Shown here one piece after another: positions 9,757 through 54,350 of a DNA stretch of 64,000 nt; the first letter of the stretch is position 1, and each line of letters begins with the position of its first letter. The notes under the pieces were generated by a model. It was not told the origin of the DNA. It saw only the letters and a program-made list of their open reading frames with translations, and ran no database searches. The position numbers and the translations under genes are program-made. Source of the stretch: an uncultured virus (IMG/VR IMGVR_UViG_3300035698_010745) (Duplodnaviria > Heunggongvirae > Uroviricota > Caudoviricetes); IMG/VR virus record IMGVR_UViG_3300035698_010745; one strand, written 5' to 3'.

Positions 9757-10281
9757 TCATACGGGACACCCGCATTGCGGGCAATGGGGCTTTAGCAACA
9801 CATCCTCTTTCCGGGCGCGAGCCGCTTTCTTAACCCGGCACTCCAGCTTCAGGGCCTGGCTCTTTGTCAAACCACCCCTCCATGCCTTCAAGTGTACAGG
9901 AAGGCGTCCACGGGTATACCGGGCACCCTTACCCTTGCCGTGAACCCAAATGCGCTTCTGTAAGTCATTCGTGGCCCCACAATAAAGCGTACCGTCCGAA
10001 CACTTCAATAGGTAGACTTTCCAGTTTGTCTGCGAGCGCTCCAACTGCCGACGGAGTTCCTGTATCCTGGCCAACCGGTCCTGCAACGGCACACAATGAC
10101 CTCGCTCCCACCGGTTTACGGTTGCGAAGGATACTCCCACGCTCTCGGCAAAATCAACCTGCGTCATATGTAAGCCCTTACGCAGTGCTTTGATTTGTCT
10201 CGGTATCATCAGAACACCAAGTGCTCGTGCTCGTGTTCCTGGCAGTAGGTGCCCGTTGTATTCGTCGCGGGGGCACCACAC
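9757..10281 (-). CDS. XRE-type HTH fused to a GIY-YIG nuclease domain
   Basis: [32 protein letters not shown] (HTH), then [23 protein letters not shown] (GIY-YIG, YhbQ-like). Confidence 0.8.
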
Positions 10282-13200
10282 TCACTGCACTTACGGACTT
10301 CCTGCTCTCGCTCGTGTGCCTGCATGCCGAGGTAGCACTTCTCACAGACATTCTTTCCGGGCAGAGCCTCGGCGTGGCTGCAATCTGTACACCACCGAAG
10401 TTCTGAGCTGTCGCCATCCTGGAGGTACGAGAGGACGTAATCCGCCGCCCGGCCACTGGCCCGGCTCCCATCCTTGTCACTGAGTTCAAACGGGGACTCA
10501 CAATCCACCTGCCAGCCGTCATCCTCCAACAATTTCCTGTCATTCGCGTCCATGCGGCCTTTTCCTTGTCCCCAATGCTTTCAAGCGTGACTGGAAATAC
10601 TCCAGGTCGCTAACTTTCGGGTTGAACACTTCGGCAGACAATTGGGATTCGGTCTTCCCCGCGTCGGCACCCTTCTGAATCACTTTTTCTTTCATTTCAC
10701 CGCCTCCAGCTTGCGATATTCTGCGATAGTTGCCCCACCATAGCCGTTAAGGTGAGCAACAAGACCCTTCCACCCCCGCTTCTTCATCCTTGCATTTGCC
10801 GGTGAAATGCTCCGCAAGCCGTACTTCCGGCCATCAAACATCACCATGCAAGGTGGCTTCAGTCTCGTGTTCATGGTGCACCCTTCAAATATGCCAGTCC
10901 ACGGTAAACGCTCGATGGGGCCGTGCCAACAATGAATGCCTGCAACTCCCCGGTCCACGTTCCTCCCTCAATCTGGTACGCAAACAAGGGGTAGTATGTC
11001 AGGGCCAAAACCTCAACGGCTCCAAACGCCTTCATCCGGGCCTCAATATCCGAGCACACGGCTTTCACCGCATTCACGGCCTCATGGTCCGTCCCGAAGG
11101 GGTTGGACATGACCAAGGATGACGGCGGGATGTGCCACAATTGCTCCTGGTTCACGGGCTCCACCCCATCGTTGTACTGGCACAAAATGGCGTGATGCCG
11201 GTCAACCGGGTCGAGGGTGCTATGGACAAGATGGCCCTTGTCGATGAACAGGTGCTCTCCGTCGTTTAGCCTGATGACTCTCATGTCAATCCACTCTCAA
11301 TGCGCCCGGCGTGTAGATGTAAGGTCCATCCGGGCAACACGTCACCCTGAAATTGTGAAACTTGCGCTCCCCAAACAGGGCAAACAGCATATCCCCCAGC
11401 TCGTCGTCCGTAACAGCCCCGGTATCCAAGGCCGCTTTGAGAACGGCTACCGCGTCATCCCGCTCAATCTCCATTGTTGAATATATGCCCATAATTATAC
11501 TCCGCTCCGTTATCCCCGGTCCTGGACTCTTTTCCGAGGGAAGTCGTCATCCTCCATCTTTCGCGTCGGTAAACTAAAGACAGCGCCCACGGTCATGTCC
11601 CACACTTTGTTGACTTCTTCCGGCGTGATGTTAGAAGCCTTGCCGTACTGGCACACGAGGTCCGTCAACTGTCCATCCCAATCCGGCTCCAGCCTCTGGG
11701 CCGTGTCTGTGATACTAACAACGAATAGTGCGCGTTCTCGTGTCATGCCATGTGCCTCGTTATGATTTCAGCCATCTCGCCGATACTCGTTTCATCCAGC
11801 GGCAACCCTATACCCACGATTTCCTCAGCAGCCGCCCTTGCATTCTTGTCTTCCACATCCTCAAACCACTCGATGTAGCCGGGAAACTGACTCAAGTCAG
11901 CCTCGGCAATCGGCTTCATCCCAATAGCCTGGAGTTCGGCTTCACGCTCTTTGAGCACGACCTGGACCGCATAGGAGTCACCTATACCGCCACACGTGTA
12001 CGGCTTGCGCAAAGCATCGGCCTCCGGGTTTACGCCTTTCGGGAATTCCAAGGATACAACATGGCCATAGTTGATTTCGGTTCTCCAATAGAACTTGCCC
12101 GTAGCCCTTGCCGCCTTCGATGCCTCACCCGTGTCAATGGTATAAACTCTGATTATTTTCGTACCTTTATGTCGGAGGAGCGCCTTGTTTGCGGCAAGCA
12201 CGTTCAAGACGTGCTGCTTCTTCAGGCCGGAATAGGACACGATAGCAGGCAACGTGGCACCGTTACTCGCCTTGAACAGCTTACAAATGGTTTCGTATAC
12301 GGGACCCCTCATAGCTTCGCCTCTGGCGGTAACGCAAGTATCTGCGCCACAGTCATCTTCTTGATGGATTCAACATCCTCGTGCGTTACCTTCGCGGCTC
12401 GTCCGTAGTCGCACACAACATCCTCAAACGACTCGCCCTCAAACGACTCGCCCTCGCCCGCCACCCTGAAGGCGATATTCATCAGGTCCAGGATAAAGAA
12501 AGCCCTCTCTCGTGTCGGTGTCATGCCGAACGACTCTCTACAAATTCCTGGTAGACCTCGGGGATATTCCATCCGAATGTCTTATCGTTGTCCGACACCC
12601 ACCGAAGGAATGCTTCCACTTCCTTACACTCAGCAACCGTCAGCTTTTCCTCAATATGGAACATATTGTCTTCGGGGACGAATGAACCGGAAGACCGGAC
12701 TGCATCCCGAATCATCGACAGAACCGAATCATTCAATCTCGTTGCGGTCATTATCTTGTTTCCCTTCGGATTCTGAGATTCATAGGTCCTCCGGCTTGAT
12801 TGCTTCCCGGCCCGGTTTCGCAGGCTTGGCCTTGATTGTGTGCTCGTGCCCCTTAGCGCCCCACCAGTACGCCGCGCTATCAGGTAAGCCATCTGTGTTC
12901 AAATGGGCAGGTACGGCCTCCTGGGGCGCGACAGCGGCCAACAGTGGGGCAGGCAGGCCCTTGGCCAACCGCCGAGCATTGGTCCGCAATATCCTGGCTT
13001 TCTTTCTAGGAAAGCGTTTCCGCAGCTTAACGTACCAAACCAGCTCTTCAGCCGTAAGAGGCGTCGGCGGATTGAAGGTGTTAGGATGAGGATGTCTCAT
13101 TTCCCCTCCGTCAAGACAAATGCCTTGGCCATCACAGCCGGTTCAGGATTGAATTCAAAGAAGGTTCTGTCACGAACGGAAGGGGTCAAGTCCCTTATCC

Positions 13201-14212: not shown

Positions 14213-14243
14213 AACTCCTACCTCCGTCTCATACTATACCTAC

Positions 14244-14270
14244 CATTGCAACGCCGTGCTAAGATTCTGA
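14244..14270 (-). promoter_or_regulatory. class-1 phage promoter motif TCAGAAT-N14-GCAATG
   Basis: Exact match upstream of the ORF starting at 14212. Confidence 0.75.
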
Positions 14271-14367
14271 AAATAATCACAAGAAATACGTCAAGAAAGC
14301 AGCCCTGGAACAGGGTACAGAGAAGACCCTATATAGATATACGGGATTTCCGGGGGCGTGGATGTCA

Positions 14368-14389
14368 CAAAAGCCCTATAGATAAGGGC
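14368..14389 (-). terminator. putative terminator of the tRNA/ncRNA operon
   Basis: GCCCT-TATCTAT-AGGGC followed by TTTT, downstream of the last RNA gene. Confidence 0.4.
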
Positions 14390-14470
14390 AAAAGAGGAGG
14401 GGCCGAAATCTGGACGTAGTTGCAAATCCTATGTTTCGTATCTGCAAATCCCACGAAATGTGGGAAAAAT

Positions 14471-14741
14471 TGGCGGACGAGACGAGATTCGAACTCGCAA
14501 AACAGTGGCCATCGGCGTTTGGGAAACGGGTGACATGCGCTTATTACATTCACCTGGTGTAATCACTCTTCGCTTTCCACCAGGTCGCCACAGGCACTCT
14601 TTACAACCCTGCCAAATGAGCCTCTCGGGGACCGCAACAACGCTGCTATAATTACCCTGAGTACCCAGCCACCGTCCCGATTAGGGGAACCAGTGCATTC
14701 AACGTTTTTACTGGCGCATTTTTCCTCTCTGCCACTCGCCC
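14471..14741 (-). ncRNA. 271-nt tRNA-like RNA with giant variable-arm insertion and non-canonical anticodon loop
   Basis: Acceptor GGGCGAG/CTCGTCC+G-CCA; Ser-like D arm; stem CCAGT/ACTGG with a 15-nt loop; T arm GCGAG-TTCGAAT-CTCGT; ~190 nt between anticodon and T arms. Confidence 0.7.
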
Positions 14742-14825
14742 TGGTGCCGGGAGCGAGATTCGAACTCGCACGCCCGAAGGCCCCGAATTTTAAGTCCAGG
14801 TTGTCTGCCATTCCATCATCCCGGC
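14742..14825 (-). tRNA. tRNA-Leu(TAA)
   Basis: Cloverleaf with CTGGA-CT TAA AA-TTCGG, long variable arm, encoded CCA. Confidence 0.92.
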
Positions 14826-15132: not shown

Positions 15133-15155
15133 TGGCGGAAGATATGGGACTTGAA
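15133..15155 (-). repeat. degenerate duplicate of the tRNA-Ser(CGA) 3' end
   Basis: TTCAAGTCCCATATCTTCCGCCA versus TTCAAATCCCTCCTCTTCCGCCA of the tRNA at 15933. Confidence 0.6.
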
Positions 15156-15163
15156 AATCATAA

Positions 15164-15189
15164 TTCTTTGATATTCAGTCTAAGGGTAG
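15164..15189 (+). promoter_or_regulatory. putative class-2 phage promoter TTCTTTGATA-N12-GTAG
   Basis: Immediately upstream of the AGGAGG RBS of the plus-strand endonuclease gene. Confidence 0.5.
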
Positions 15190-15198
15190 GAGGATGAT

Positions 15199-15876
15199 AT
15201 GCACCCGCTCTACACAGAAACCGAATTCAAAGCTGCCAAATCACGAAACAAACTACCACTTAAATGTTTTACTTGTGAGCAACCATTTTTGCTTAGCAAA
15301 AACAGAATACAATGCTCTCTTTCTCCCCACTCCAACGACAACGGAATGTTTTGCAGTAAGAAATGTACCGGCCTATATTTTATGCCAAATGTCGTATGCC
15401 TCCAGTGCTCAACCACCTTCCGAAAGAAGAGAACCCAAATCTCCAAATCTAAATCTGGCAATCATTTCTGTTCTCGTTCATGTGCTGCCATCTACAACAA
15501 TGCCCACAAGAAGCACGGGACCCGACGGTCAAAACTCGAAGCATGGCTTGAGGAACAACTCACCGCCATTTATCCCGACCTTGAATTTCATTTCAACCGC
15601 AAAGATGAGATTCTGTCAGAACTCGACATCTATATCCCTTCGCTCCGGTTGGCCTTCGAACTCAATGGCATTTATCACTACGAACCCATCTACGGTCAGG
15701 ACAAGCTCGATGCCATTCAATCTAACGACCATCGCAAGTTTGCTGCTTGCCATGAAGCGGGGATTAGCCTCTGCTCCATTGACACATCTCATCAAAAATA
15801 CTTCAAAGAGCAATCATCACGAAAATTCCTGAAGATTATCCAAAACATCATCGACTCTCGCTTGTCAGACTCTTAG
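15199..15876 (+). CDS. putative homing endonuclease (Zn-finger repeats plus a PD-(D/E)XK/Vsr-like domain)
   Basis: C..C...FCS..C repeats; ELDIYIPSLRLAFELNGIYHY motif; AT-richer than flanks; antisense within the tRNA array. Confidence 0.75.
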   Translation: MHPLYTETEFKAAKSRNKLPLKCFTCEQPFLLSKNRIQCSLSPHSNDNGMFCSKKCTGLYFMPNVVCLQCSTTFRKKRTQISKSKSGNHFCSRSCAAIYNNAHKKHGTRRSKLEAWLEEQLTAIYPDLEFHFNRKDEILSELDIYIPSLRLAFELNGIYHYEPIYGQDKLDAIQSNDHRKFAACHEAGISLCSIDTSHQKYFKEQSSRKFLKIIQNIIDSRLSDS

Positions 15877-15933
15877 CCAGTCTTTCGACTGTTTCTAGCC
15901 GGAACCACGTAGAGGTGGCCTGATACTCCGGCT
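15865..15933 (-). ncRNA. HDV-like (theta-type) self-cleaving ribozyme at the tRNA-Ser(CGA) 3' end
   Basis: P1 AGCCGGA/TCCGGCT, P2 TCAGGC/GTCTGA, P3 CAC-CTCTAC-GTG, P1.1 CT/AG, P4 CAGTC-GAAA-GACTG, J4/2 GCTAAGA. Confidence 0.8.
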
Positions 15934-16021
15934 GGCGGAAGAGGAGGGATTTGAACCCCCGTGCGCTTTCACGCGCCTCCGATTTCGAATCGGGCCGATT
16001 GCCAGGCTCTCGCACTCTTCC
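15933..16021 (-). tRNA. tRNA-Ser(CGA)
   Basis: CCGA-TT CGA AA-TCGG, long variable arm, G73, CCA. Confidence 0.88.
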
Positions 16022-16090
16022 ATAAGGAACACAGGGACTTTGGAACGCAGTCTTGCCCATATTCCTCGGCTCGCAAGCTAGGTACTCCTT

Positions 16091-16179
16091 TGGCGGAAGG
16101 GACAGGATTTGAACCTGCGTACGCTTTCACGCGCCTGGGATTAGCAATCCCGCCGATTACCCGGCTCTCGCACCCTTCC
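16091..16179 (-). tRNA. tRNA-Ser(GCT)
   Basis: GGGA-TT GCT AA-TCCC, long variable arm, G73, CCA. Confidence 0.88.
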
Positions 16180-16342: not shown

Positions 16343-16427
16343 TGGCTGCTGGGACAGGTCTCGAACCTGCAAGCCCGAAGGCGGCACATTAACAGTGTGC
16401 TACGGCTACCAATTTCGTCACCCAGCA
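16343..16427 (-). tRNA. tRNA with Asn (GTT) anticodon and class-II long variable arm
   Basis: TGCTGGG/CCCAGCA acceptor, GCACA-CT GTT AA-TGTGC, GCC-TTCG-GGC variable hairpin, G73, CCA. Confidence 0.8.
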
Positions 16428-17321: not shown

Positions 17322-17410
17322 TGGTGCTGCGAGAGAGATTCGAACTCTCATGGGACTTTCGTCCTCTGGTTTTTGAGACCAGCGCCTCCGGCCAATTGGG
17401 CTACCGCAGC
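17322..17410 (-). tRNA. tRNA-Leu(CAA)
   Basis: CTGGT-CT CAA AA-ACCAG, long variable arm, A73, CCA. Confidence 0.9.
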
Positions 17411-18097
17411 CTTTCTCCATCTGGCTATAGTCGGGGGACTAACACCATGCTTCCTCGCCGAACCACGAACTCCAAGCTCTTTAACGTCATCTAGTATGAA
17501 ATCATCTGGAATCTTTCTCCTCTTTCTCCCAATGGACCCACAACATTTTATACACCTACCCGTCGACCTTTTTTCCCTCAGAGGCTTCCCACAACCTTCA
17601 CAAAAATAACTACCACCACGAAAAGCCTTTCTATTTCTTCCCGCAAACGTATCTTGTTGACTGTTACAGTTCGGACACAACATCCTCAAGTTTTCCACCC
17701 GATGGTCATTATTTACACCGTTAACGTGGTCAAGAACCATCACCAAGGTCTTTCCTCTCCACTGGGGTTCTTGCCCACACTCAAAACACCTATTCTCAAC
17801 TAGCCCCTCTTTCATAAGTCGCTTTTTGAGTGCAGATGTCCCCCGGTACTTACTATCTTTGACAAGTATTTCGCACAGAGGCTTCTTCTTTACCCATGTA
17901 CATCGTTTTCCTGAAAGATGCCCTTGCCCAGTCCAGTGCGTTGTGAGAAGTCCCAATCTCGCCACCGCCCAATGCACTGTCTTGTAGTTCGCACCAGTTG
18001 GACTCATCCCTAATTGCCTCAAGACGCCAGCAATTGAATGATTACCCACAACCGCAACGGTCATCCCATCGTCGCTCCAAGTTCTCTTGCTCGACAT
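17348..18097 (-). CDS. HNH homing endonuclease
   Basis: C..CG...W.G..LVMVLDHVNGVNNDHRVENLRMLCPNCNS motif; C-terminal HTH-like segment; reading frame runs into tRNA-Leu(CAA). Confidence 0.88.
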   Translation of the reverse strand: MSSKRTWSDDGMTVAVVGNHSIAGVLRQLGMSPTGANYKTVHWAVARLGLLTTHWTGQGHLSGKRCTWVKKKPLCEILVKDSKYRGTSALKKRLMKEGLVENRCFECGQEPQWRGKTLVMVLDHVNGVNNDHRVENLRMLCPNCNSQQDTFAGRNRKAFRGGSYFCEGCGKPLREKRSTGRCIKCCGSIGRKRRKIPDDFILDDVKELGVRGSARKHGVSPPTIARWRKAAVAQLAGGAGLKNQRTKVP

Positions 18098-18605: not shown

Positions 18606-18685
18606 TGTCTCACCAGAAATACTTCAAGCCTAAAACATCGTGGAAGTTCCTGGACATCATTACCGGTATCATCTCAAACCGTTTA

Positions 18686-18748
18686 TCAGACTCTTAGCCG
18701 ATTATCGTTACCAGCCCGAACCACGTGGAGGTGGTCTGAACTCGGGCT
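18686..18748 (-). ncRNA. HDV-like (theta-type) self-cleaving ribozyme at the tRNA-Leu(TAG) 3' end
   Basis: P1 AGCCCGA/TCGGGCT, P2 TCAGAC/GTCTGA, P3 CAC-CTCCAC-GTG, P1.1 CC/GG, J4/2 GCTAAGA; P1 starts right after discriminator A73. Confidence 0.82.
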
Positions 18749-18829
18749 TGGTCGAGGCGAGATTCGAACTCGCACGCCCGAAGGCACCAGGTCCTAAACC
18801 TGACGTGGCTGCCGTTACACCACTCGACC
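18749..18829 (-). tRNA. tRNA-Leu(TAG), no encoded CCA
   Basis: TCAGG-TT TAG GA-CCTGG, long variable arm, A73 followed directly by the ribozyme. Confidence 0.9.
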
Positions 18830-18923: not shown

Positions 18924-19056
18924 ATCGTCTCGCACCAATAGCCGCTGAGCGGTATGCCCAACCAACGCGGGCGTATTTCCCAGCTTTTTGTGGATGGCGG
19001 GAAATACTGGAATTGAACCAGTGAAGTATCGCTCTGCTGAAGCGTGCTTCGACGAT
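18924..19056 (-). ncRNA. yrlA: YrlA-like Y RNA with CCA inside the acceptor loop
   Basis: ATCGTC/GACGAT terminal stem with GTCGAAG; T arm ACTGG-TTCAATT-CCAGT; acceptor ATTTCCC-GCCATCCACAAAAAGCT-GGGAAAT; D arm GCCC/GGGC. Confidence 0.75.
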
Positions 19057-19193: not shown

Positions 19194-19269
19194 TGGTGGC
19201 AACTACTGGAATTGAACCAGTGACGCGTAGATTTTCAGTCTACCGCTCTACCAACTGAGCTAAGCCGCC
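19194..19269 (-). tRNA. tRNA-Phe(GAA)
   Basis: Canonical 76 nt, GTAGA-CT GAA AA-TCTAC, CCA. Confidence 0.93.
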
Positions 19270-19677: not shown

Positions 19678-22175
19678 TCAACTTTTTTTCAGTGGCCCAA
19701 TGATGGCCTCAATCTCATCCGAAATCTCATTCATCCGGCGTATCCGAATGTCCCGGTTCTCATGGTCTTTGCCGTCCATAAGGGCCTGGAGGTCTCCATT
19801 CTGTTCACAAGATTCCGTAACCCTCATTAGTACGGCATCAACGGCTGGCCGCTTGTCCCCCTTGCGGCCCTCCAGAACCAGGGCCGACATTCTTGCCCCA
19901 GCTTGATGATACGACCACTCCCACAACTGTGCATACTCATCGGAACCAATACCCCGGTACGATGAAATTTCTCCCGCCTCATCCCAGTTCCACATCGTGA
20001 AGTAGTAACTCGGGTACTTGGGATTCCCCTGATAGTGCTTATTGAACTCTACCGTGGCCCACTCTTCATGGAAACCCGTACTCTGTATCCGCCTTGCAAC
20101 TTGCTTACGCACCGCTGGCCACATCGGAGAGTCGGGTGCCAGAACCAATGGTTGTCCCTTTAGGTGGTGCTCGGACATGCTTACCAGATTGGCGAACCCC
20201 TTGTCATGGGTAAGCGCGAACTCTCCCGTCGACATGTCGAAAACAACCTTCGGGTGACCATCAATCTCCCCCAGAAGATTGTACAACCGGAAAGATACCT
20301 TGAACGGGTTCAACGATGTAATCTCAATATTCATATTGTCCTAGCGTATTGCGTACTTCTCCGGGTTGTCGTGTCTCCGGCAATGATGATACCGAATGCC
20401 GTTACGGCGTGGGGTTCCAAAGTCCAATGGCTCTGTGATGCCCAACTCACTCCGCACGTAGTCCATCTCATCCGGCGTCAATGCTTCGTCGATGTTGAAA
20501 TCCGAGGTACACTCATCTATCCCCAATGCTTGCCTCCACGCCTGCCCCAAGCCCCACCTGAACTGACTCCAGCAACTCAGCGGCCCCCACGTTCCGGGCC
20601 ACTTCCTGGCAATTGCCAAGGCGTTCTCTATAAGGGCTGGACGCCCAATCCGCGCTACCGCTGCGTCGAATGACGCCAAGCCCCTAAGACGCCCCTTAAT
20701 GACGTCCTGTCGTGTTACACTTGGTCTTGCCCATCTCGTTGCCATAATTTTCCTCTCTACTCAAATTCCTGCACTTCCTCGTGCCCTGCATCCCGGTGCT
20801 GCTGAATCGTCCGGCGCACCCTGCGAGTTTCGAGTTCAAGAAACCCTAAAACGTTCGTACTGGTCTGCGTATTCCCATAATCGTGCCACCACGCCTTTAC
20901 ATCGTCCGACTGGACCAGGGCCTCCACGGCATCCACCCGCTTCTCCCAATCCTCTAGCCGTTCCCCCTGCTCTCCATAGATGTTGCAGGCTTTGTCAATC
21001 TGTCCTATCAACTTCCACTTCAAGGCTTCGGCCTCGGCGGTCAACGTCACGAGCCGAACCATGTCTTCAGATTGCTGTATGGCTTTTAATCCCATCCTTG
21101 ATTTCCTTTGCGTATCCCGCTTTCACACTGTCGGGGACGCCCTCTGCCCACTCCCCGTCAACGAGATGTCCAGCCGCGATGGCCTTCCTCGTCACACGCT
21201 GAGCAACACGGTCCACCTTTCGGCTATCTCCCCGCTCATCCGCAACTATAATTCTGGCCCACATGCCGGATGTAGTCTTATCCAGTTTGATACTCATGCC
21301 CTTACATTGCACCGCCTGCCTGGGATTCTGAAAGAAAGTGCCCGGTCCATCCAGAAGATAAGCCGGGCACCTACTCTTACGCCAGTCTGAGATGGCCGAA
21401 CAACCTCCTTCCGGCATCCCGCGTCATGGGGTAGAAGGCGATTGCCGTCCAACCGAAGTCCGGCGGGAAATCGTCATCTATGAAGTACGCGCTTGTCCCG
21501 GCCTGGAGTTCCAACTCGTGCATCTGCTCCTCAGTTGCCTGAAGAGTGATGATGGTACGGTGATTCTTCCGCCAGTCCTGGATTTCGGGGTCCTAACCGA
21601 ATTCCCCCATGAGTTCGGCAAGAGCATGACACGCCTGCGGTATCCGCTGGCCCTTGGTGAGTTCCTTTCGACATAGGATGTAGAGTGCCTTATCCATTAA
21701 GTAGGCCCTCCAATTCCTCGGCCAAGTCGCCCAGGTACATGTTGAGGTTGCCACGAGCCCAAGCCGTGTATCCGGTACCACCCGCATGCGGGGGCCGGTT
21801 ACGAAGCCGGTTGTGGAGGATGTGGGTGCCAGTGATGGCATCCTTGTCTGCCCAAGTACCCTGGCCCTCCTTGAAACCGGCAGCGAAGTCCGCCGTCAGT
21901 TCCTTGGTGGTGTGGTACTTGTGGCCCCGAGCATCGGCGTATCCGCAAAGGATGCCTTTGAGGTAAGCACACGCCTTACGATGGGCGATTTGTGCTGGTG
22001 TGAACGTCTTTTCGAGTATGGCTGTGGTCATTGTATTCTCCTTTGTTAGACCGTTAATGCCAATCAGTATGATACCAATCAGTACAACAGCCCTCACGGA
22101 GGGCCACGCGCCATCTATGTAAATCCGAAAATCTAACGTTTCTTCATCGTCTGCTCCAAAAAAAAGTTCTTTCAA
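19678..22175 (-). other. block of small hypothetical phage genes
   Basis: Minus-strand ORFs 19678-20334, 20341-20745, 20757-21095, 21067-~21297 and 21690-~22031. Confidence 0.6.
21305..21331 (-). promoter_or_regulatory. class-1 phage promoter motif TCAGAAT-N14-GCAATG
   Basis: Exact match; ATG only 7 nt downstream (leaderless-like). Confidence 0.75.
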
Positions 22176-23752: not shown

Positions 23753-23795
23753 TGGAGGGTCATACGGGGGGTCGAACCCGTCTGGACGGATTTTA
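23753..23795 (-). pseudogene. orphan tRNA 3' half
   Basis: ACGGG-TTCGAC...CCCGT-ATGACCC-T-CCA; no matching 5' half seen. Confidence 0.55.
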
Positions 23796-24401
23796 GTTTA
23801 CATATGACACTGTGAACTTCCGTTTTCCTTTTCCTTTGTTCTTGCCACAAAATGTTGGAAGCTGTCCGTCACAGTTTCGACACACGAACCTCACATTATC
23901 AGGCTTAGTCCTGGAAGCATCTCCGTCTATGTGGTCATGGACAAGGGGCACGGATTTCCCCATCCACTCGGATGTTTCACAAATAGAACATTTCAATCCC
24001 TGAGTTTTTTCAAGCCACTTGCGAACATGTTTAGATGTCCCCTGATACTTTCCTCTATAAGTTCCATTTTCGGTTCCTTTAATCCATGCATCCACCCAGT
24101 CTCTATGGTTCTTGTCTTTTTGACACTTCGTATTGCAATACTTCCTTTTATTTCCGGTCAGCTTCGAACCACACCCTAAACAAAACCCAGGGCATTCACC
24201 ATGCCGACGAACCCCTCTGTTATTAAAAGATGCCGCACAAGAATGGTTGCAGAATCTCAGTCTCTTTTTCTCATAAGGCAACTCTAATCCGCATTGTTCA
24301 CATAACTTTGGGTTATTTTCATATTCAGACCTAATCTTTTTCCATTTCGCCTTTGTTGCCTCAGCCCCCTTTAAACTGCCTTCATGCATAAGCCTATTCA
24401 T
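23793..24401 (-). CDS. HNH homing endonuclease with Zn-finger repeats
   Basis: C..C...FCNHSC, YCNTKC and CSICETSEWMGKSVPLVHDHIDG...NVRFVCRNC motifs. Confidence 0.85.
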   Translation of the reverse strand: MNRLMHEGSLKGAEATKAKWKKIRSEYENNPKLCEQCGLELPYEKKRLRFCNHSCAASFNNRGVRRHGECPGFCLGCGSKLTGNKRKYCNTKCQKDKNHRDWVDAWIKGTENGTYRGKYQGTSKHVRKWLEKTQGLKCSICETSEWMGKSVPLVHDHIDGDASRTKPDNVRFVCRNCDGQLPTFCGKNKGKGKRKFTVSYVN

Positions 24402-24463: not shown

Positions 24464-24539
24464 TGGTGCCCACAGCGAGAATTGAACTCGCAACATCCGA
24501 ATTTAGAGTTCGGCACTCTACCAATTGAGCTATGCGGGC
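24464..24539 (-). tRNA. amber suppressor tRNA (anticodon CTA)
   Basis: Canonical 76-nt cloverleaf, GCCCGCA/TGTGGGC acceptor, CCGAA-CT CTA AA-TTCGG, A73, CCA. Confidence 0.88.
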
Positions 24540-52148: not shown

Positions 52149-52175
52149 CATTGCACGGAGGTGCCTGGATTCTCA
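52149..52175 (-). promoter_or_regulatory. class-1 phage promoter motif (variant TGAGAAT-N14-GCAATG)
   Basis: One mismatch; upstream of the WGR gene. Confidence 0.65.
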
Positions 52176-54350
52176 TATTTTCACTTGCCCACCCGTCACC
52201 ACCTCGGCCAGCTTGCGGAGAAACTCCTGGCTCATCGTGGTCGGGTCATCAAGATACACAAAGTTATTCTTGCCGTAGAACTGCTCCGGGTCCTCCGTCT
52301 GCACACCGAACCCGTACACCTCAACACCCTGTTTACGTGCACGTTCGCACACCCGCTTGATGTTGTGGCCAAGGGCCGAGTCGCGCCCCTGTCCACCGCA
52401 GGGCGAACCATCACTCAAGCTAAACACTACCTTACGGCGCTCGGGGCGTCCAAGCAACCGGAACACGCAATACTCCACGGCCTCGCCGTCAATGTTGTGC
52501 ATATGGGCACCGGTATGCACCAACCGCTGCCGCACAGCTTCCCATGCCTCGCCGAACTGGACATAGTGATTATAGATAATCGGGACTGTCCGTGTCATGC
52601 CGTCAAGTTGGGGGCAACTGCGGTCACCCATACCATACTTGGTCGTCGTGCCCATAATCTCAAACGGTACGCCGATTGAGTTGAGGGCTTCGCCGATGGC
52701 GATGGCAAGCAACCGTACGGCCATATAGTTACTCATCGAGCCGGACTCATCGATAACGATTTCAACGGCAACCTCCAGGTGCTGGCCATCACGAGTCTTG
52801 AAAAACACCTCTTTGCTCAAGCCCTTAGCAATCGCAACCAGCCGCCTTTTGTCAATACGTCCTTGCTGCAAGTAACCGTGACGGCGGCAACGGGACAAGG
52901 ACCGCAGGGCCTGCTCCAATGCGCGGGTCATGGAGGCCACCATCACGGCCACCATCTCACGTTCCGTCTTGAACTTTATTCGGTCATTATCGCGGCTCTT
53001 AGGAACCTTGTGCTGGTCGAGGTCGCGCCGGGACATGTACTCGGCATCCCTCGGGTCCATCTCTGTAAAGTAATCCTCGATGGCCTCATTCATGGCCTCT
53101 TCGCGGGACCGCCCATCCGTCTCGTCATCAAGGTCCGTATCTTTCCACTCGTCGGGCTCTTCTTTTTCTTCTTCATCCAGGGTGTAATCGTCTTCGCCGT
53201 CACGGCTTGAGTCGTTCGGCTTGTAAGGGGTGTCGGCATCCGGGCCATCTTCTTTCTTGCCGTCCTCTGCCTGCTCGTCTCCATCATCGCCAACATCATC
53301 TCCACCCGTACCACCCTCGGAATCTCCCTCTTCCCCGATATCGTCCCCATCCCCCTCGTCCCCACCACTAGCGGAATCCCCATCGTCGTCCTTGTCCTCA
53401 TTCCCGGCCTTGCCATCCTTTTCGTCCCCGCCATCCTTTTCGTCGCCGTCTTTCGGCTCATCCTTCTTGCCACCCTTGCTATCTTCATCGTCTTCTTTGT
53501 CGTCACCCTTGTCTCCGTTGCCCTTGGGCTTGGAATCTTCGCCCTCCTCTCCATCCTCGTCCGGCTTACCCTTGCCACCCTTCTGCTCATCCTCTTCCTC
53601 GTCCAAGTCGCCCTGCCCACCGGCCTGGGGCTCGTTCGATTCCTGTGGCTCGCCGTTGCCCTTCTGCTTCTCTCCGTCACCCTTCTGAGGCTTGCCTTGC
53701 TCGGGCTTCGGGTTCTCTTTCTTGTACTGCTCGTTGGCGTCCTTCAACAGGGCCAGGATTTTCTTGGCCAGCTTGACACACTCGGAGGCATTCTTGCACA
53801 AACGGACCTTGGCAAACTCGCTATAGGCAGCCTCAACATATGCCTTGGCCTTGGTGGAAAGTTCCCAAGCTGGTTGGATTCCATCGGACATGAGCCCCAT
53901 ACCACACAGGGCTTCCCACAACGGCGCATTGATTTCTCCATCCATCGCAGCCTTGGCAATGTCCTTGTTGTACCAGTTGTTGCCCCACCGGAACACAACC
54001 TCGCAGCCCTTGTGCAATCCGGCCTCAACTGCTTCCATGCGACGGTCCTCAAGCGCGTTTACGATTTCTCCCAAGGCCCCGGCAGGCTTGTCCACGTCCG
54101 TCTCGTCGATGTGGCCAGCCTCGTGGTAGACCCGGTGACGGAGAAGCATCAAAGCGTCGTTGGTCACGCCCGAGGCGCAAGCCATCCTGGGAATGCGAAT
54201 GATGCCCTTGCGGATGTCAGCGTCCACCGCCGACCCGTTATGGTACTGGACCTGGACTTTTCGGTTCCGGCCAATCCACCCGGCAACGACGGACATGGCG
54301 TCCTCGGCCTGGGTTTCCGTGTAATAACTTGCTTGTCCTCTTGCCACCAT
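52173..54350 (-). CDS. CobT-like VWA protein with N-terminal HExxH domain and long acidic linker
   Basis: YHEAGH, NALEDRRME, D/E/G/K-rich linker, IDESGSM MIDAS, LSDGSP. Confidence 0.85.
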   Translation of the reverse strand: MVARGQASYYTETQAEDAMSVVAGWIGRNRKVQVQYHNGSAVDADIRKGIIRIPRMACASGVTNDALMLLRHRVYHEAGHIDETDVDKPAGALGEIVNALEDRRMEAVEAGLHKGCEVVFRWGNNWYNKDIAKAAMDGEINAPLWEALCGMGLMSDGIQPAWELSTKAKAYVEAAYSEFAKVRLCKNASECVKLAKKILALLKDANEQYKKENPKPEQGKPQKGDGEKQKGNGEPQESNEPQAGGQGDLDEEEDEQKGGKGKPDEDGEEGEDSKPKGNGDKGDDKEDDEDSKGGKKDEPKDGDEKDGGDEKDGKAGNEDKDDDGDSASGGDEGDGDDIGEEGDSEGGTGGDDVGDDGDEQAEDGKKEDGPDADTPYKPNDSSRDGEDDYTLDEEEKEEPDEWKDTDLDDETDGRSREEAMNEAIEDYFTEMDPRDAEYMSRRDLDQHKVPKSRDNDRIKFKTEREMVAVMVASMTRALEQALRSLSRCRRHGYLQQGRIDKRRLVAIAKGLSKEVFFKTRDGQHLEVAVEIVIDESGSMSNYMAVRLLAIAIGEALNSIGVPFEIMGTTTKYGMGDRSCPQLDGMTRTVPIIYNHYVQFGEAWEAVRQRLVHTGAHMHNIDGEAVEYCVFRLLGRPERRKVVFSLSDGSPCGGQGRDSALGHNIKRVCERARKQGVEVYGFGVQTEDPEQFYGKNNFVYLDDPTTMSQEFLRKLAEVVTGGQVKI

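What the first reader, a model, noticed from the sequence alone, without database searches (positions are those of the whole stretch)
14471..14741. 271-nt giant tRNA-like RNA with G3·U70, a 15-nt anticodon loop and ~190-nt structured variable region
Seen: intact acceptor (with G3·U70, G73, CCA), D arm and T arm. The variable region is closed by CGGTGGCT/GGCCACTG and contains ACCTGGTG/CACCAGGT and other stems. The enlarged anticodon loop (AACGTTG) could pseudoknot with CAGCGTT in the insert. Established: G3·U70 is the AlaRS determinant used by tmRNA, but tmRNAs lack a D stem and have A73, and I see no convincing tag ORF. Inference: an undescribed chargeable tRNA-scaffolded ncRNA.
Basis: partly seen in the sequence, partly recalled or inferred. 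Interest (0 to 1): 0.75.

Follow-up and report, generated by a model that had tools for sequence, protein, structure and literature searches.

The report
Oversized non-decoding tRNA-like gene in phage
The last gene of a salt-lake phage's tRNA cluster is a real tRNA-shaped gene that cannot read codons, because its anticodon loop is twice the normal size and 172 extra bases sit before its T arm; it resembles the unexplained tRNA-like RNAs of phages T4 and T5.

Summary
On the minus strand, 14741 to 14471, lies a 271-nt tRNA frame: a 7-bp acceptor stem with G3·U70, G73-CCA, a 3-bp D stem, a 5-bp stem with a 15-nt loop, a short variable hairpin, 172 extra bases, and a canonical T arm. A descriptor scan finds such frames only at known tRNAs and here, against 0.06 per shuffled window.

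The claim of a "structured" insert does not hold. Folding energy equals that of shuffles (z -0.03 for the whole RNA, -0.3 to -0.7 for the insert). The named 8-bp helices and the proposed pseudoknot are at chance level.

No Rfam family matches at E≤10, including tRNA, tmRNA and group I intron. No hairpin in the RNA has a canonical anticodon loop, so this is neither a working tRNA nor a simple intron. No homologue was found in any collection, so conservation could not be tested.

The frame is closest to the array's tRNA-Leu(UAG). The gene abuts tRNA-Leu(UAA) with no spacer and precedes terminator-like hairpins.

Best reading: a diverged type-II tRNA paralogue made as a tRNA-like end-of-operon RNA, like T4 RNA C/D and T5 RNA1/RNA2. 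A dead pseudogene is nearly as likely. Interest is modest.

The parts
14735..14741 (-). Acceptor stem, 5' strand GGGCGAG (positions 1-7). G3 pairs with U70.
   Evidence: It pairs 7 of 7 with 14475-14481. The frame was found by the descriptor scan.
14716..14732 (-). D arm: 3-bp stem GCA/UGC with the 11-nt loop GAGAGGAAAAA, which contains GG. This is the type-II (Leu/Ser/Tyr-like) architecture.
   Evidence: tRNA-Leu(UAG) at 18749-18829 has the same layout. The arm is part of the MFE, with pair probability 0.22-0.23.
14690..14714 (-). Anticodon-like arm: CCAGU/ACUGG closing a 15-nt loop (14695-14709) instead of 7 nt. No U33/R37 anticodon loop is present.
   Evidence: Pair probability 0.92-0.97. 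In the list of hairpins with 7-nt loops, only the T arm has the U33/R37 pattern.
14675..14688 (-). Short hairpin UCCC-CUAAUC-GGGA, at the place and of the size of a type-II variable arm.
   Evidence: Pair probability 0.5-0.7.
14503..14674 (-). The 172-nt insert between the variable hairpin and the T stem. Its ends can pair (CGGUGGCU 14667-14674 with GGCCACUG 14503-14510). It holds one robust hairpin, ACCUGGUG/CACCAGGU (14552-14585).
   Evidence: Sequence. Fold z -0.3 to -0.7. Closing helix probability 0.3-0.4; hairpin probability 0.78-1.0. No copy elsewhere in the window. No Rfam match. No homologue.
14482..14498 (-). T arm GCGAG-UUCGAAU-CUCGU. It matches the T arm of tRNA-Leu(UAG) and tRNA-Leu(UAA) at 16 of 17 bases.
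14471..14481 (-). Acceptor 3' strand CUCGUCC, discriminator G73 (14474) and encoded CCA (14471-14473).
14742..14825 (-). tRNA-Leu(UAA). Its CCA end touches base 1 of the element with zero spacer.
   Evidence: ARAGORN; Rfam 41.5 bits; spacer table.
14303..14389 (-). Two terminator-like hairpins downstream of the element (14373-14389 and 14303-14315), then a promoter-like site (14233-14262). The element is therefore the last unit of the tRNA transcription unit.
   Evidence: Consensus scan. The count of such sites is not above shuffles, so this is a weak pointer only.

Best explanation
The element is a diverged paralogue of the array's long-variable-arm (type II, Leu-family) tRNAs that no longer decodes.

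It keeps the parts that tRNA-processing enzymes read: the acceptor stem, the T arm, the D/T elbow and G73-CCA. Its anticodon loop has swollen to 15 nt, and 172 unrelated bases lie between the variable hairpin and the T stem.

It is transcribed as the last unit of the phage tRNA operon. RNase P cuts it out at 14741/14742, and that same cut creates the mature CCA end of the adjoining tRNA-Leu(UAA).

The product is a tRNA-like RNA of the kind that T4 (RNA C/D) and T5 (RNA1/RNA2) make from their tRNA clusters. The acceptor/T half is what selection keeps. The insert is tolerated cargo and is neither a folded domain nor an intron.

Shown: the anatomy, the zero spacer, the position at the end of the array, and the lack of any decoding loop.

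Inferred: transcription, RNase P processing, stability, and any charging by AlaRS through G3·U70.
For: 1. The tRNA frame is real and far beyond chance, and it is the minimum-energy fold.

2. All 24 pairs of the five frame helices are Watson-Crick or G·U.

3. Comparison with the nearest paralogue, tRNA-Leu(UAG) at 18749-18829:
- The T arm is identical at 16 of 17 bases.
- The acceptor is identical in 6 of 7 pairs.
- Pair 3:70, two of three D-stem pairs and one of five anticodon-stem pairs differ on both sides.
- Two further pairs, the first anticodon-stem pair and the first T-stem pair, each differ on one side between G-C and G·U.
- No pair is broken.

4. No hairpin in the RNA has a 7-nt loop with the U33/R37 pattern except the T arm. 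ARAGORN at its default threshold and Rfam tRNA at E≤10 do not call it.

5. There is zero spacer to tRNA-Leu(UAA).

6. In the same array, two other tRNAs are followed by an HDV-like ribozyme match: at once after the CCA of tRNA-Ser(CGA), and 1 nt after the discriminator of tRNA-Leu(UAG), which has no encoded CCA. So 3'-end formation by whatever lies next to a tRNA is a theme of this array.

7. Terminator-like hairpins follow the element.

8. Precedents, as annotated in the records:
- T4 rnaD and rnaC follow the last tRNA of its cluster with spacers of 1 and 6 nt.
- T5 RNA1 and RNA2 are annotated as 'tRNA-like stable RNA with unknown functions'.
- By my reading of the sequences, T5 RNA1 is a Leu-like type-II frame with its anticodon arm replaced by a long hairpin, and T4 rnaC carries a CCGGG-UUCGAAU-CCCGG T arm.
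- Both of those clusters, like this one, hold homing-endonuclease genes.
Against: - No expression data exist. Of 8 runs that hold the stretch, none is on record as RNA.
- No homologue was found, so constraint acting after the insertion cannot be shown. The compensatory changes may all predate it.
- The insert folds no better than shuffles, whereas T4 rnaC (z -4.6), T5 RNA2H (-2.9), RNAIII (-2.9) and RNAIV (-2.3) do fold better. However, T4 rnaD (-0.8) and T5 RNAI (-0.8) do not either.
- An insertion next to the T stem could disturb the tRNA core, for example the 15-48 pair, and so impair RNase P recognition.
- The array holds other debris: a tRNA 3' half at 18997-19056. This raises the prior for plain decay.
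- There is no sequence similarity to the T4 or T5 RNAs.
Confidence: 0.45

Rival explanations
1. It is a dead tRNA gene. A duplicated Leu-family tRNA was hit recently by an insertion and by loop expansion, has no function of its own, and has simply not yet decayed.
For: - The insert has no excess structure, no family match and no copy elsewhere.
- The anticodon loop is unusable.
- The array is a zone of turnover. It holds or adjoins four homing-endonuclease genes: 9757-10281, 15199-15876(+), 17348-18097 and 23793-24401.
- It holds a tRNA 3'-half remnant.
- Two ARAGORN-called tRNAs are weak or absent in Rfam: Tyr scores 18.6 bits, and the 85-nt 'Asn' has no hit at E≤5.
- Earlier notes of this scan describe disabled tRNA-like genes with oversized loops elsewhere (unchecked leads).
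Against: - All 24 frame pairs are intact, and CCA and the T-loop consensus are kept.
- The zero-spacer junction means its acceptor/T half is needed, or at least used, to free the 3' end of tRNA-Leu(UAA).
- Both points fit a very recent event as well.
Confidence: 0.3
2. It is an intron-containing tRNA. The extra bases are removed, by self-splicing or by a protein, to give a working tRNA, as proposed for the 'enigmatic introns' of Lak megaphage tRNAs.
For: - Oversized tRNAs read as intron-bearing are published for huge phages (passages read).
- At a lowered threshold (-ps80), ARAGORN proposes a 191-nt intron.
- Homing endonuclease genes are nearby.
- The ends of the insert can pair.
Against: - No group I, group II or other ribozyme family matches at E≤10 on 281 nt.
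- The insert lies between the variable hairpin and the T stem, not in the anticodon loop, where the known bacterial tRNA group I introns sit (recalled knowledge).
- ARAGORN's model needs a G·A pair, has A at position 33, and has an AAA anticodon.
- Checked by index, neither the 4-nt nor the 5-nt variable-loop model gives five pairs with CCAGU. The best is 4 pairs plus a mismatch, with two bases after the D stem.
- Removing positions 68-239 still leaves the 15-nt loop.
- No insert-less allele or joint appears in four runs. Those are DNA contigs only, so this is weak evidence.
Confidence: 0.1
3. The RNA is a new chargeable, tRNA-scaffolded non-coding RNA. AlaRS (through G3·U70) or SerRS (through G73 and a long extra arm) loads it, and the 172-nt domain does something new: a tmRNA-like rescue function, or a decoy or sponge for tRNA-targeting defence nucleases or synthetases.
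For: - G3·U70, G73 and CCA sit in an intact acceptor/T minihelix.
- By established knowledge (recalled: Hou and Schimmel 1988; McClain and Foss 1988), G3·U70 suffices for AlaRS on minihelices and on tmRNA.
- Relative to tRNA-Leu(UAG), the changes in the acceptor end fall on 3, 70 and 73, which are the identity positions.
- Phage tRNA clusters are linked to escape from tRNA-cleaving defences (abstract of PMC13096335 in the listing).
Against: - No tmRNA call at the default threshold. The -ps80 call borrows the neighbouring tRNA's T arm and reports 'Tag not identified'.
- No tmRNA family matches.
- By my reading of the three frames, no reading frame ends like a degradation tag.
- No SmpB or synthetase gene was seen among the window's ORFs tested with Pfam and PHROGs. 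The window is only 64 kb.
- The insert has no excess structure.
- G3·U70 is one transition away from the A3-U70 of the four Ser tRNAs.
- Nothing about charging was tested.
Confidence: 0.1
4. It is an assembly chimera that joins the 5' part of one tRNA gene to the 3' part of another.
For: The descriptor scan shows that such cross-matches can arise between similar neighbours: Ser(CGA)/Ser(GCU), 15936-16179.
Against: - An independent 517-nt Logan contig of X1 spans the whole element with 0 differences.
- X2 and X3 contigs cover the 5' junction.
- The acceptor sequence GGGCGAG/CUCGUCC occurs in no other tRNA of the array.
Confidence: 0.03

Closest known systems
Phage T5 RNA1 and RNA2 (annotated 'tRNA-like stable RNA with unknown functions', AY543070)
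   Same: - Encoded inside a phage tRNA cluster that also holds HNH homing-endonuclease genes.
- They abut neighbouring RNAs with 0-4 nt spacers.
- They keep an acceptor stem and a T arm.
- By my reading of the sequence, RNA1 is a Leu-like type-II frame (D region GCCGGAAUUGGUAGAC) whose anticodon arm is replaced by a long hairpin.
- Function unknown.
   Different: - 144 and 125 nt, against 271 nt here.
- Their extra RNA sits in the anticodon arm and forms a hairpin (z -1.7 and -1.3). Here the anticodon-like arm is short with a 15-nt loop, the extra 172 nt lie before the T stem, and they show no excess fold.
- No sequence similarity: blastn against the phage collection, which holds T5, gave no hit in the element.
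Phage T4 RNA C and RNA D (species 1 and 2 RNAs, rnaC/rnaD)
   Same: - They sit at the downstream end of the T4 tRNA cluster, just after the last tRNA, with spacers of 1 and 6 nt. The segB homing endonuclease lies in that cluster.
- rnaC has a CCGGG-UUCGAAU-CCCGG T arm.
- A review states that their roles are unknown (passage of PMC3014915).
   Different: - 139 and 119 nt.
- rnaC is strongly structured (z -4.6).
- I saw no cloverleaf D and anticodon arms in them.
- No sequence similarity.
Oversized tRNAs with 'enigmatic introns' in Lak megaphages (Devoto et al. 2019, PMC6784885)
   Same: Putative tRNAs in a large uncultivated phage that are much longer than expected and are unclassified by Rfam (passages read).
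   Different: - There, removal of the insert is reported to give a typed tRNA with an anticodon, and insert-less alleles exist. Here no excision gives a decoding tRNA, and no insert-less allele was seen.
- I did not see their supplementary table of intron sequences, so the positions of their inserts are unknown to me.
tmRNA
   Same: G3·U70 in a 7-bp acceptor stem, a T arm, an encoded CCA, and a large non-tRNA body between the two halves of the tRNA-like domain.
   Different: - It has a D stem and a local anticodon-like hairpin.
- It has G73 instead of A73.
- There is no tag frame.
- ARAGORN does not detect it at its default threshold, and no Rfam tmRNA family matches at E≤10.
Bacterial tRNA genes with group I introns (tRNA-Leu(UAA), tRNA-fMet, tRNA-Ile, tRNA-Arg)
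   Same: A tRNA gene interrupted by about 200 nt. The size is close to the Azoarcus tRNA-Ile intron (recalled as about 205 nt).
   Different: The insert is not in the anticodon loop. RF00028 does not match at E≤10. No U·G P1 context is evident. Excision does not restore a canonical tRNA.

Membership tests
Canonical tRNA (Rfam RF00005) | Scores at or above the family threshold (29 bits), or is called by ARAGORN at its default threshold | tested here: not met
   No tRNA match over 14471-14741 at gathering score or at E≤10. ARAGORN default gives nothing there.
Canonical tRNA (Rfam RF00005) | A 7-nt anticodon loop with U33 and a purine at 37 on a 5-bp stem | tested here: not met
   The loop is 15 nt. 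Among hairpins with a 7-nt loop in the 271 nt, only the T arm has the U33/R37 pattern.
Canonical tRNA (Rfam RF00005) | Acceptor stem, D arm, T arm with a T-loop consensus, discriminator and CCA | tested here: met
tmRNA | tRNA-like domain with G3·U70 and a T arm | tested here: met
tmRNA | Tag reading frame with a resume codon; detection by ARAGORN -m or by the Rfam tmRNA models | tested here: not met
   ARAGORN -m finds nothing. At -ps80 it makes a call that uses the neighbouring tRNA as the 5' domain and reports 'Tag not identified'. No tmRNA family matches at E≤10.
tmRNA | No D stem, with the anticodon arm replaced by the long P2 helix; A73 | tested here: not met
   A D stem and a local 5-bp hairpin are present, and the discriminator is G.
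Group I intron in a tRNA gene | Conserved catalytic core (P3-P8, P7 G-binding site), detectable with RF00028 | tested here: not met
   No match at E≤10 on 281 nt, searched with the laxest filters.
Group I intron in a tRNA gene | Insertion in the anticodon loop; joined exons form a canonical tRNA | tested here: not met
   The insert lies after the variable hairpin. The ARAGORN intron model is sub-threshold, with a G·A pair and A33. No canonical anticodon arm can be formed.
Group I intron in a tRNA gene | Self-splicing with guanosine and Mg2+ | not testable with these tools
   Needs an in-vitro assay or RNA reads. No RNA run is listed among the holders.
Phage tRNA-cluster 'tRNA-like stable RNAs' (T4 RNA C/D, T5 RNA1/RNA2) | Encoded within or at the end of a phage tRNA cluster, abutting a tRNA | tested here: met
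   It is the last gene of a 16-tRNA minus-strand array, with zero spacer to tRNA-Leu(UAA).
Phage tRNA-cluster 'tRNA-like stable RNAs' (T4 RNA C/D, T5 RNA1/RNA2) | tRNA-like acceptor/T half with a non-tRNA body | tested here: met
Phage tRNA-cluster 'tRNA-like stable RNAs' (T4 RNA C/D, T5 RNA1/RNA2) | Accumulates as a discrete stable RNA in infected cells | not testable with these tools
   No RNA run holds the stretch.
Phage tRNA-cluster 'tRNA-like stable RNAs' (T4 RNA C/D, T5 RNA1/RNA2) | Sequence homology to the T4 or T5 RNAs | tested here: not met
   blastn (word 11) against 50,697 phage records matched 4 records, all within the neighbouring tRNA-Leu and none in the element. This is a class by analogy, not one homologous family.
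Lak-type intron-bearing phage tRNAs | Removal of the insert gives a typed tRNA; insert-less alleles exist; the insert is conserved across genomes | tested here: not met
   No excision restores a decoding tRNA. No insert-less form appears in 4 runs (DNA contigs at low depth). Conservation is untestable because there is no homologue.

The most novel reading that the evidence does not exclude
The RNA is a working, aminoacylatable tRNA mimic. Changes at exactly the identity positions (3:70 to G·U, 73 to G) re-aimed a Leu-family tRNA at AlaRS or SerRS. The non-decoding body, with its 15-nt loop and 172-nt domain, makes it a decoy or sponge for a host tRNA-targeting defence nuclease or a synthetase, or a carrier of an activated amino acid for a non-ribosomal use. 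That would be a new class of phage tRNA-scaffolded effector RNA.
Probability: 0.1. Interest if true: 0.8.

Novelty: new variant of a known kind. Interest (0 to 1): 0.35.

Why it matters
Phage tRNA clusters are now seen as counter-defence and translation-tuning modules. The tRNA-like RNAs inside them (T4 RNA C/D, T5 RNA1/RNA2) have had no known function for decades.

This element is an unusually large example from an unrelated, uncultivated salt-lake phage. It keeps exactly the half of a tRNA that processing enzymes, AlaRS and EF-Tu read, and loses the half that the ribosome reads.

If it proves to be stable and conserved, it would support the idea that phages keep tRNA 'top halves' as processing handles or decoys. 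It would also offer a natural example of how much foreign RNA a tRNA scaffold tolerates.

If it is only a decaying gene, it is a snapshot of turnover in a tRNA array rich in homing endonucleases. On present evidence it is a curiosity and not a discovery.

Tried and rejected
**Homologue searches, all empty for the element**
- blastn against 50,697 phage records: 4 records matched, all on the neighbouring tRNA-Leu.
- Exact IMG/VR patterns. The 18-mer gave 1 locus, L001, which alignment showed to be a chance match. The 26-mer, the 45-mer and a gapped frame pattern gave 0.
- Neighbouring or marker proteins in IMG/VR: 19678-20334 and 52173-54350 have no relatives.
- gp30.3 gave 104 relatives at 54-65% identity, of which 80 were kept. 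BLAST of the element against 50 of those 80 records matched 24 of 50 at E≤1. All matches were 14-40 nt. The best were T-arm 16-20-mers, and none covered the insert.
- Metagenome scan with protein 11743-12312: 1 locus, identical, a 1.5-kb contig that does not reach the element.
- Genome scan with the phosphoesterase: 2 loci at 30-34% identity, not relatives.
- tblastn of the 725-aa protein against phages: 47 records, all under 60% identity, and 25-31% in the 25 listed.
- A search for a spuriously called ORF across the element in the protein collection: no candidate.
- Earlier findings by place and by sequence: nothing.

**Expression**
- No RNA holder is listed among 8 runs, so splicing and abundance could not be examined.
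- Laying 4 DNA runs gave no joints and no variants within 14471-14741.

**Coding**
- The three ORFs that overlap the element hit 0 PHROG families at E≤1.
- tblastn of 693 window ORF translations against the region gave only short chance matches.

**Other ideas dropped**
- A second copy of the insert in the window: none.
- A second tRNA nested in the insert. MAFFT placed Leu 5' halves on positions 151-166. This rests on one shared 8-mer, UGGUGGAA. About 3 such matches are expected by chance (my estimate), and no matching T arm or acceptor partner exists.
- A target-site-duplication reading of AUGCACUGGUU / AUGGCCACUGUU at the two ends of the extra RNA: possible, but not beyond chance.
- An archaeal bulge-helix-bulge intron. 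The 83-nt tRNA-Tyr has a long variable arm, which by recalled knowledge marks a bacterial-type set.
- tmRNA: see the rival explanations.
Full report
**Context**

The window is part of a large tailed-phage genome. It holds a tail protein, an NAD-dependent DNA ligase, DNA methyltransferases, a T4 gp30.3-like protein, AAA ATPases and several homing endonucleases. Eight public runs labelled salt lake metagenome hold it, and none is on record as RNA. No whole genome is held.

Nearly all genes lie on the minus strand; minus-strand ORFs under code 11 cover 92% of the window. ARAGORN finds 16 tRNA genes, all on the minus strand, between 14742 and 24539. Rfam confirms 13 of them at gathering score.

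The set is rich in long-variable-arm tRNAs: five Leu, four Ser and one Tyr. The 83-nt tRNA-Tyr points to a bacterial-type set (recalled knowledge). The finding is the next thing downstream of the last tRNA.

Yes. Read on the minus strand from 14741 to 14471, the sequence is as follows:
- GGGCGAG, then UG.
- GCA, an 11-nt loop with GG, UGC.
- G, then CCAGU, a 15-nt loop, ACUGG.
- U, then the hairpin UCCC-CUAAUC-GGGA.
- 172 nt, then UUUU.
- GCGAG-UUCGAAU-CUCGU.
- CUCGUCC, then G, then CCA.

The two acceptor strands pair 7 of 7, with G3·U70.

I ran a descriptor over both strands of the 64 kb. It asks for a T arm with a TTCRANY loop, followed by 7 nt complementary to a 7-mer-plus-T that lies 66-420 nt upstream. 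It returned 15 frames: 13 known tRNAs, one cross-match between two similar Ser tRNAs, and this element. Fifty shuffles gave a mean of 0.06 frames. The cloverleaf frame is also the unconstrained minimum-energy structure.

A 517-nt contig from run X1 spans 14280-14796 without a difference. Contigs of X2 and X3 cover the 5' part and the 5' junction of the insert. X1 may be the sample the window came from, and the 3' junction is covered only there.

**What does not hold**

The 'structured variable region' is not supported.
- The whole RNA folds at -88.8 kcal/mol against -88.65±5.02 for dinucleotide shuffles (z -0.03; 92 of 200 shuffles fold as well).
- The insert alone gives z -0.69, -0.55 and -0.30 for three cuts.
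- Helices of at least 8 bp in positions 53-243: 8 observed against 5.6±2.5 in shuffles.
- The best duplex between the 15-nt loop and the insert is 8 bp against a mean of 7.2 (fractions 0.22 and 0.33).

One local hairpin, ACCUGGUG/CACCAGGU, is robust, with pair probability 0.78-1.0. The closing helix has probability 0.3-0.4.

For comparison, bona fide phage stable RNAs range from z -4.6 (T4 rnaC) to -0.8 (T4 rnaD, T5 RNAI). A z near 0 is therefore weak evidence against function, not a refutation.

**What it is not**

No Rfam family matches at gathering score. At E≤10, the only overlap in a 281-nt query is a 13.6-bit chance hit to a vertebrate lncRNA model. tRNA, tmRNA, group I and II introns, RNase P and small ribozymes all fail to match.

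At its default threshold, ARAGORN calls neither a tRNA (with introns of up to 400 nt allowed) nor a tmRNA. At 80% threshold it offers two models:
- A 'tRNA-Phe(AAA)' with a 191-nt intron. This needs a G·A pair and has A at position 33.
- A 'tmRNA' that borrows the neighbour's T arm and has no identified tag.

Among hairpins with a 7-nt loop in the 271 nt, the only one with the U33/R37 pattern is the T arm. Removing the 172 nt still leaves the 15-nt loop. Using the distal ACUG as the 3' anticodon strand gives only four pairs plus a mismatch. So no simple excision yields a decoding tRNA.

The overlapping ORFs hit no PHROG family. The insert has no second copy in the window.

**Where it came from**

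The frame is a type-II tRNA frame: a 3-bp D stem, a 10-11-nt D loop and a short variable hairpin. It is closest to the array's tRNA-Leu(UAG) at 18749-18829.

| Feature | Comparison with tRNA-Leu(UAG) |
|---|---|
| T arm | 16 of 17 bases identical; the one change turns G-C into G·U |
| Acceptor stem | 6 of 7 pairs identical |
| Pair 3:70 | U-A there, G·U here |
| Discriminator | A there, G here |
| D stem | 2 of 3 pairs differ on both sides |
| Anticodon stem | 1 of 5 pairs differs on both sides; the first pair differs on one side (U·G there, C-G here) |
| Broken pairs | none |

This shows that the gene evolved under selection for the cloverleaf for much of its history. It cannot show that selection continued after the insertion.

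G3·U70 is also one transition away from the A3-U70 of all four Ser tRNAs of the array. It is not by itself proof of selection for alanine identity.

**Position and likely working**

Base 1 of the element touches the CCA of tRNA-Leu(UAA), with zero spacer. An RNase P cut at the element's 5' end would therefore also make the mature 3' end of that tRNA.

Downstream lie two terminator-like hairpins and then a promoter-like site. These are consensus matches whose counts are not above shuffles.

Elsewhere in the same array, two tRNAs are followed by sub-threshold but well-aligned HDV-like ribozyme matches (RF02682; gathering score 44).
- The first (39.2 bits, E 8.5e-5) starts at once after the CCA of tRNA-Ser(CGA).
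- The second (30.3 bits, E 0.0098) starts 1 nt after the discriminator of tRNA-Leu(UAG), which has no encoded CCA.

These resemble the 'theta ribozymes' published next to phage tRNAs (PMC10879173; I saw only the listing and the start of the abstract). This phage thus appears to rely on what lies just 3' of a tRNA to define that tRNA's end.

A tRNA-like unit whose acceptor/T half stays intact while its decoding half is free to swell is what one would expect of a processing handle. This is inference; nothing about transcription or cleavage was observed.

**Comparison with what is known**

- T4 places rnaD (119 nt) and rnaC (139 nt) right after the last tRNA of its cluster, which also holds the segB homing endonuclease. 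rnaC has a tRNA T arm.
- A review states that the roles of RNA C and RNA D are unknown (passage of PMC3014915).
- T5 annotates RNA1 (144 nt) and RNA2 (125 nt) as 'tRNA-like stable RNA with unknown functions', among HNH endonuclease genes and abutting other RNAs. I checked the annotation and the sequence, but not its conservation.
- By my reading, T5 RNA1 is a Leu-like type-II frame with a long hairpin in place of the anticodon arm.
- Lak megaphages have oversized tRNAs with 'enigmatic introns' (passages of the preprint and of PMC6784885; I did not see their supplementary table).

The present element shares the setting and the logic of these RNAs but not their sequence. It is about twice their size. 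Its extra RNA sits before the T stem instead of in the anticodon arm, and that RNA is not detectably structured.

**Conservation**

Conservation could not be tested. Every route to a homologue failed. The phage has no relative closer than about 30% protein identity for the marker tested in the phage collection. The only metagenome hit is the same phage. The four runs laid show no variant in the element.

**Verdict**

- Best explanation: a real, tRNA-derived, non-decoding tRNA-like gene, made as the last unit of the tRNA operon, whose intact top half serves processing and possibly more (0.45).
- Close rival: a recently disabled tRNA gene with no function (0.30).
- Intron-bearing tRNA: 0.10.
- Assembly artefact: 0.03.

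I rate it a new variant of a known, still unexplained kind, of modest interest until RNA or comparative data exist.

Noticed in passing
window 15865-15932 (-) and 18685-18747 (-): HDV-like self-cleaving ribozyme matches (RF02682; gathering score 44). The first (39.2 bits, E 8.5e-5) starts at once after the CCA of tRNA-Ser(CGA). The second (30.3 bits, E 0.0098) starts 1 nt after the discriminator of tRNA-Leu(UAG), which has no encoded CCA. They look like 'theta ribozymes' that shape tRNA 3' ends, here in a salt-lake phage rather than a gut phage.
   Followed up: partly
window 16343-16427 (-): An 85-nt, well-paired tRNA with a long variable arm (type II), a canonical CUGUUAA loop (anticodon GUU, Asn) and G73. 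ARAGORN calls it, but Rfam tRNA does not see it at E≤5. A Ser/Leu-type body with an Asn anticodon could be charged by either AsnRS or SerRS.
   Followed up: no
window 18997-19056 (-): A tRNA 3' half (T arm plus acceptor strand plus CCA) with no matching 5' half. Its T arm equals that of tRNA-Phe at 19194-19269. This is a remnant of tRNA gene turnover.
   Followed up: no
window 15199-15876 (+), 17348-18097 (-), 23793-24401 (-), 9757-10281 (-): Four homing-endonuclease-type genes in or beside the tRNA array: PHROG homing/HNH endonuclease families, and GIY-YIG with an HTH domain. One is on the opposite strand, inside an 807-nt gap of the array. Its first ~120 nt (15145-15267) match many diverged contigs in the salt-lake runs, so this endonuclease family seems widespread there.
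   Followed up: partly
window 24464-24539 (-): An amber-suppressor-type tRNA (anticodon CUA; ARAGORN labels it Pyl; Rfam 71.3 bits). Genes in this window nevertheless read well in the standard code, with minus-strand ORFs covering 92% of it. Late-gene recoding elsewhere in the genome is possible.
   Followed up: no
window 14320-14390: Two similar short hairpins built on CCCTATA(T)AGATA-like words lie between the element and the next genes. One scores as a terminator-like site.
   Followed up: no
window 14688-14698 and 14501-14513 (-): The near-repeat AUGCACUGGUU / AUGGCCACUGUU sits at the two ends of the extra RNA. It could be a trace of how the insertion arose, but it is not beyond chance.
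   Followed up: no
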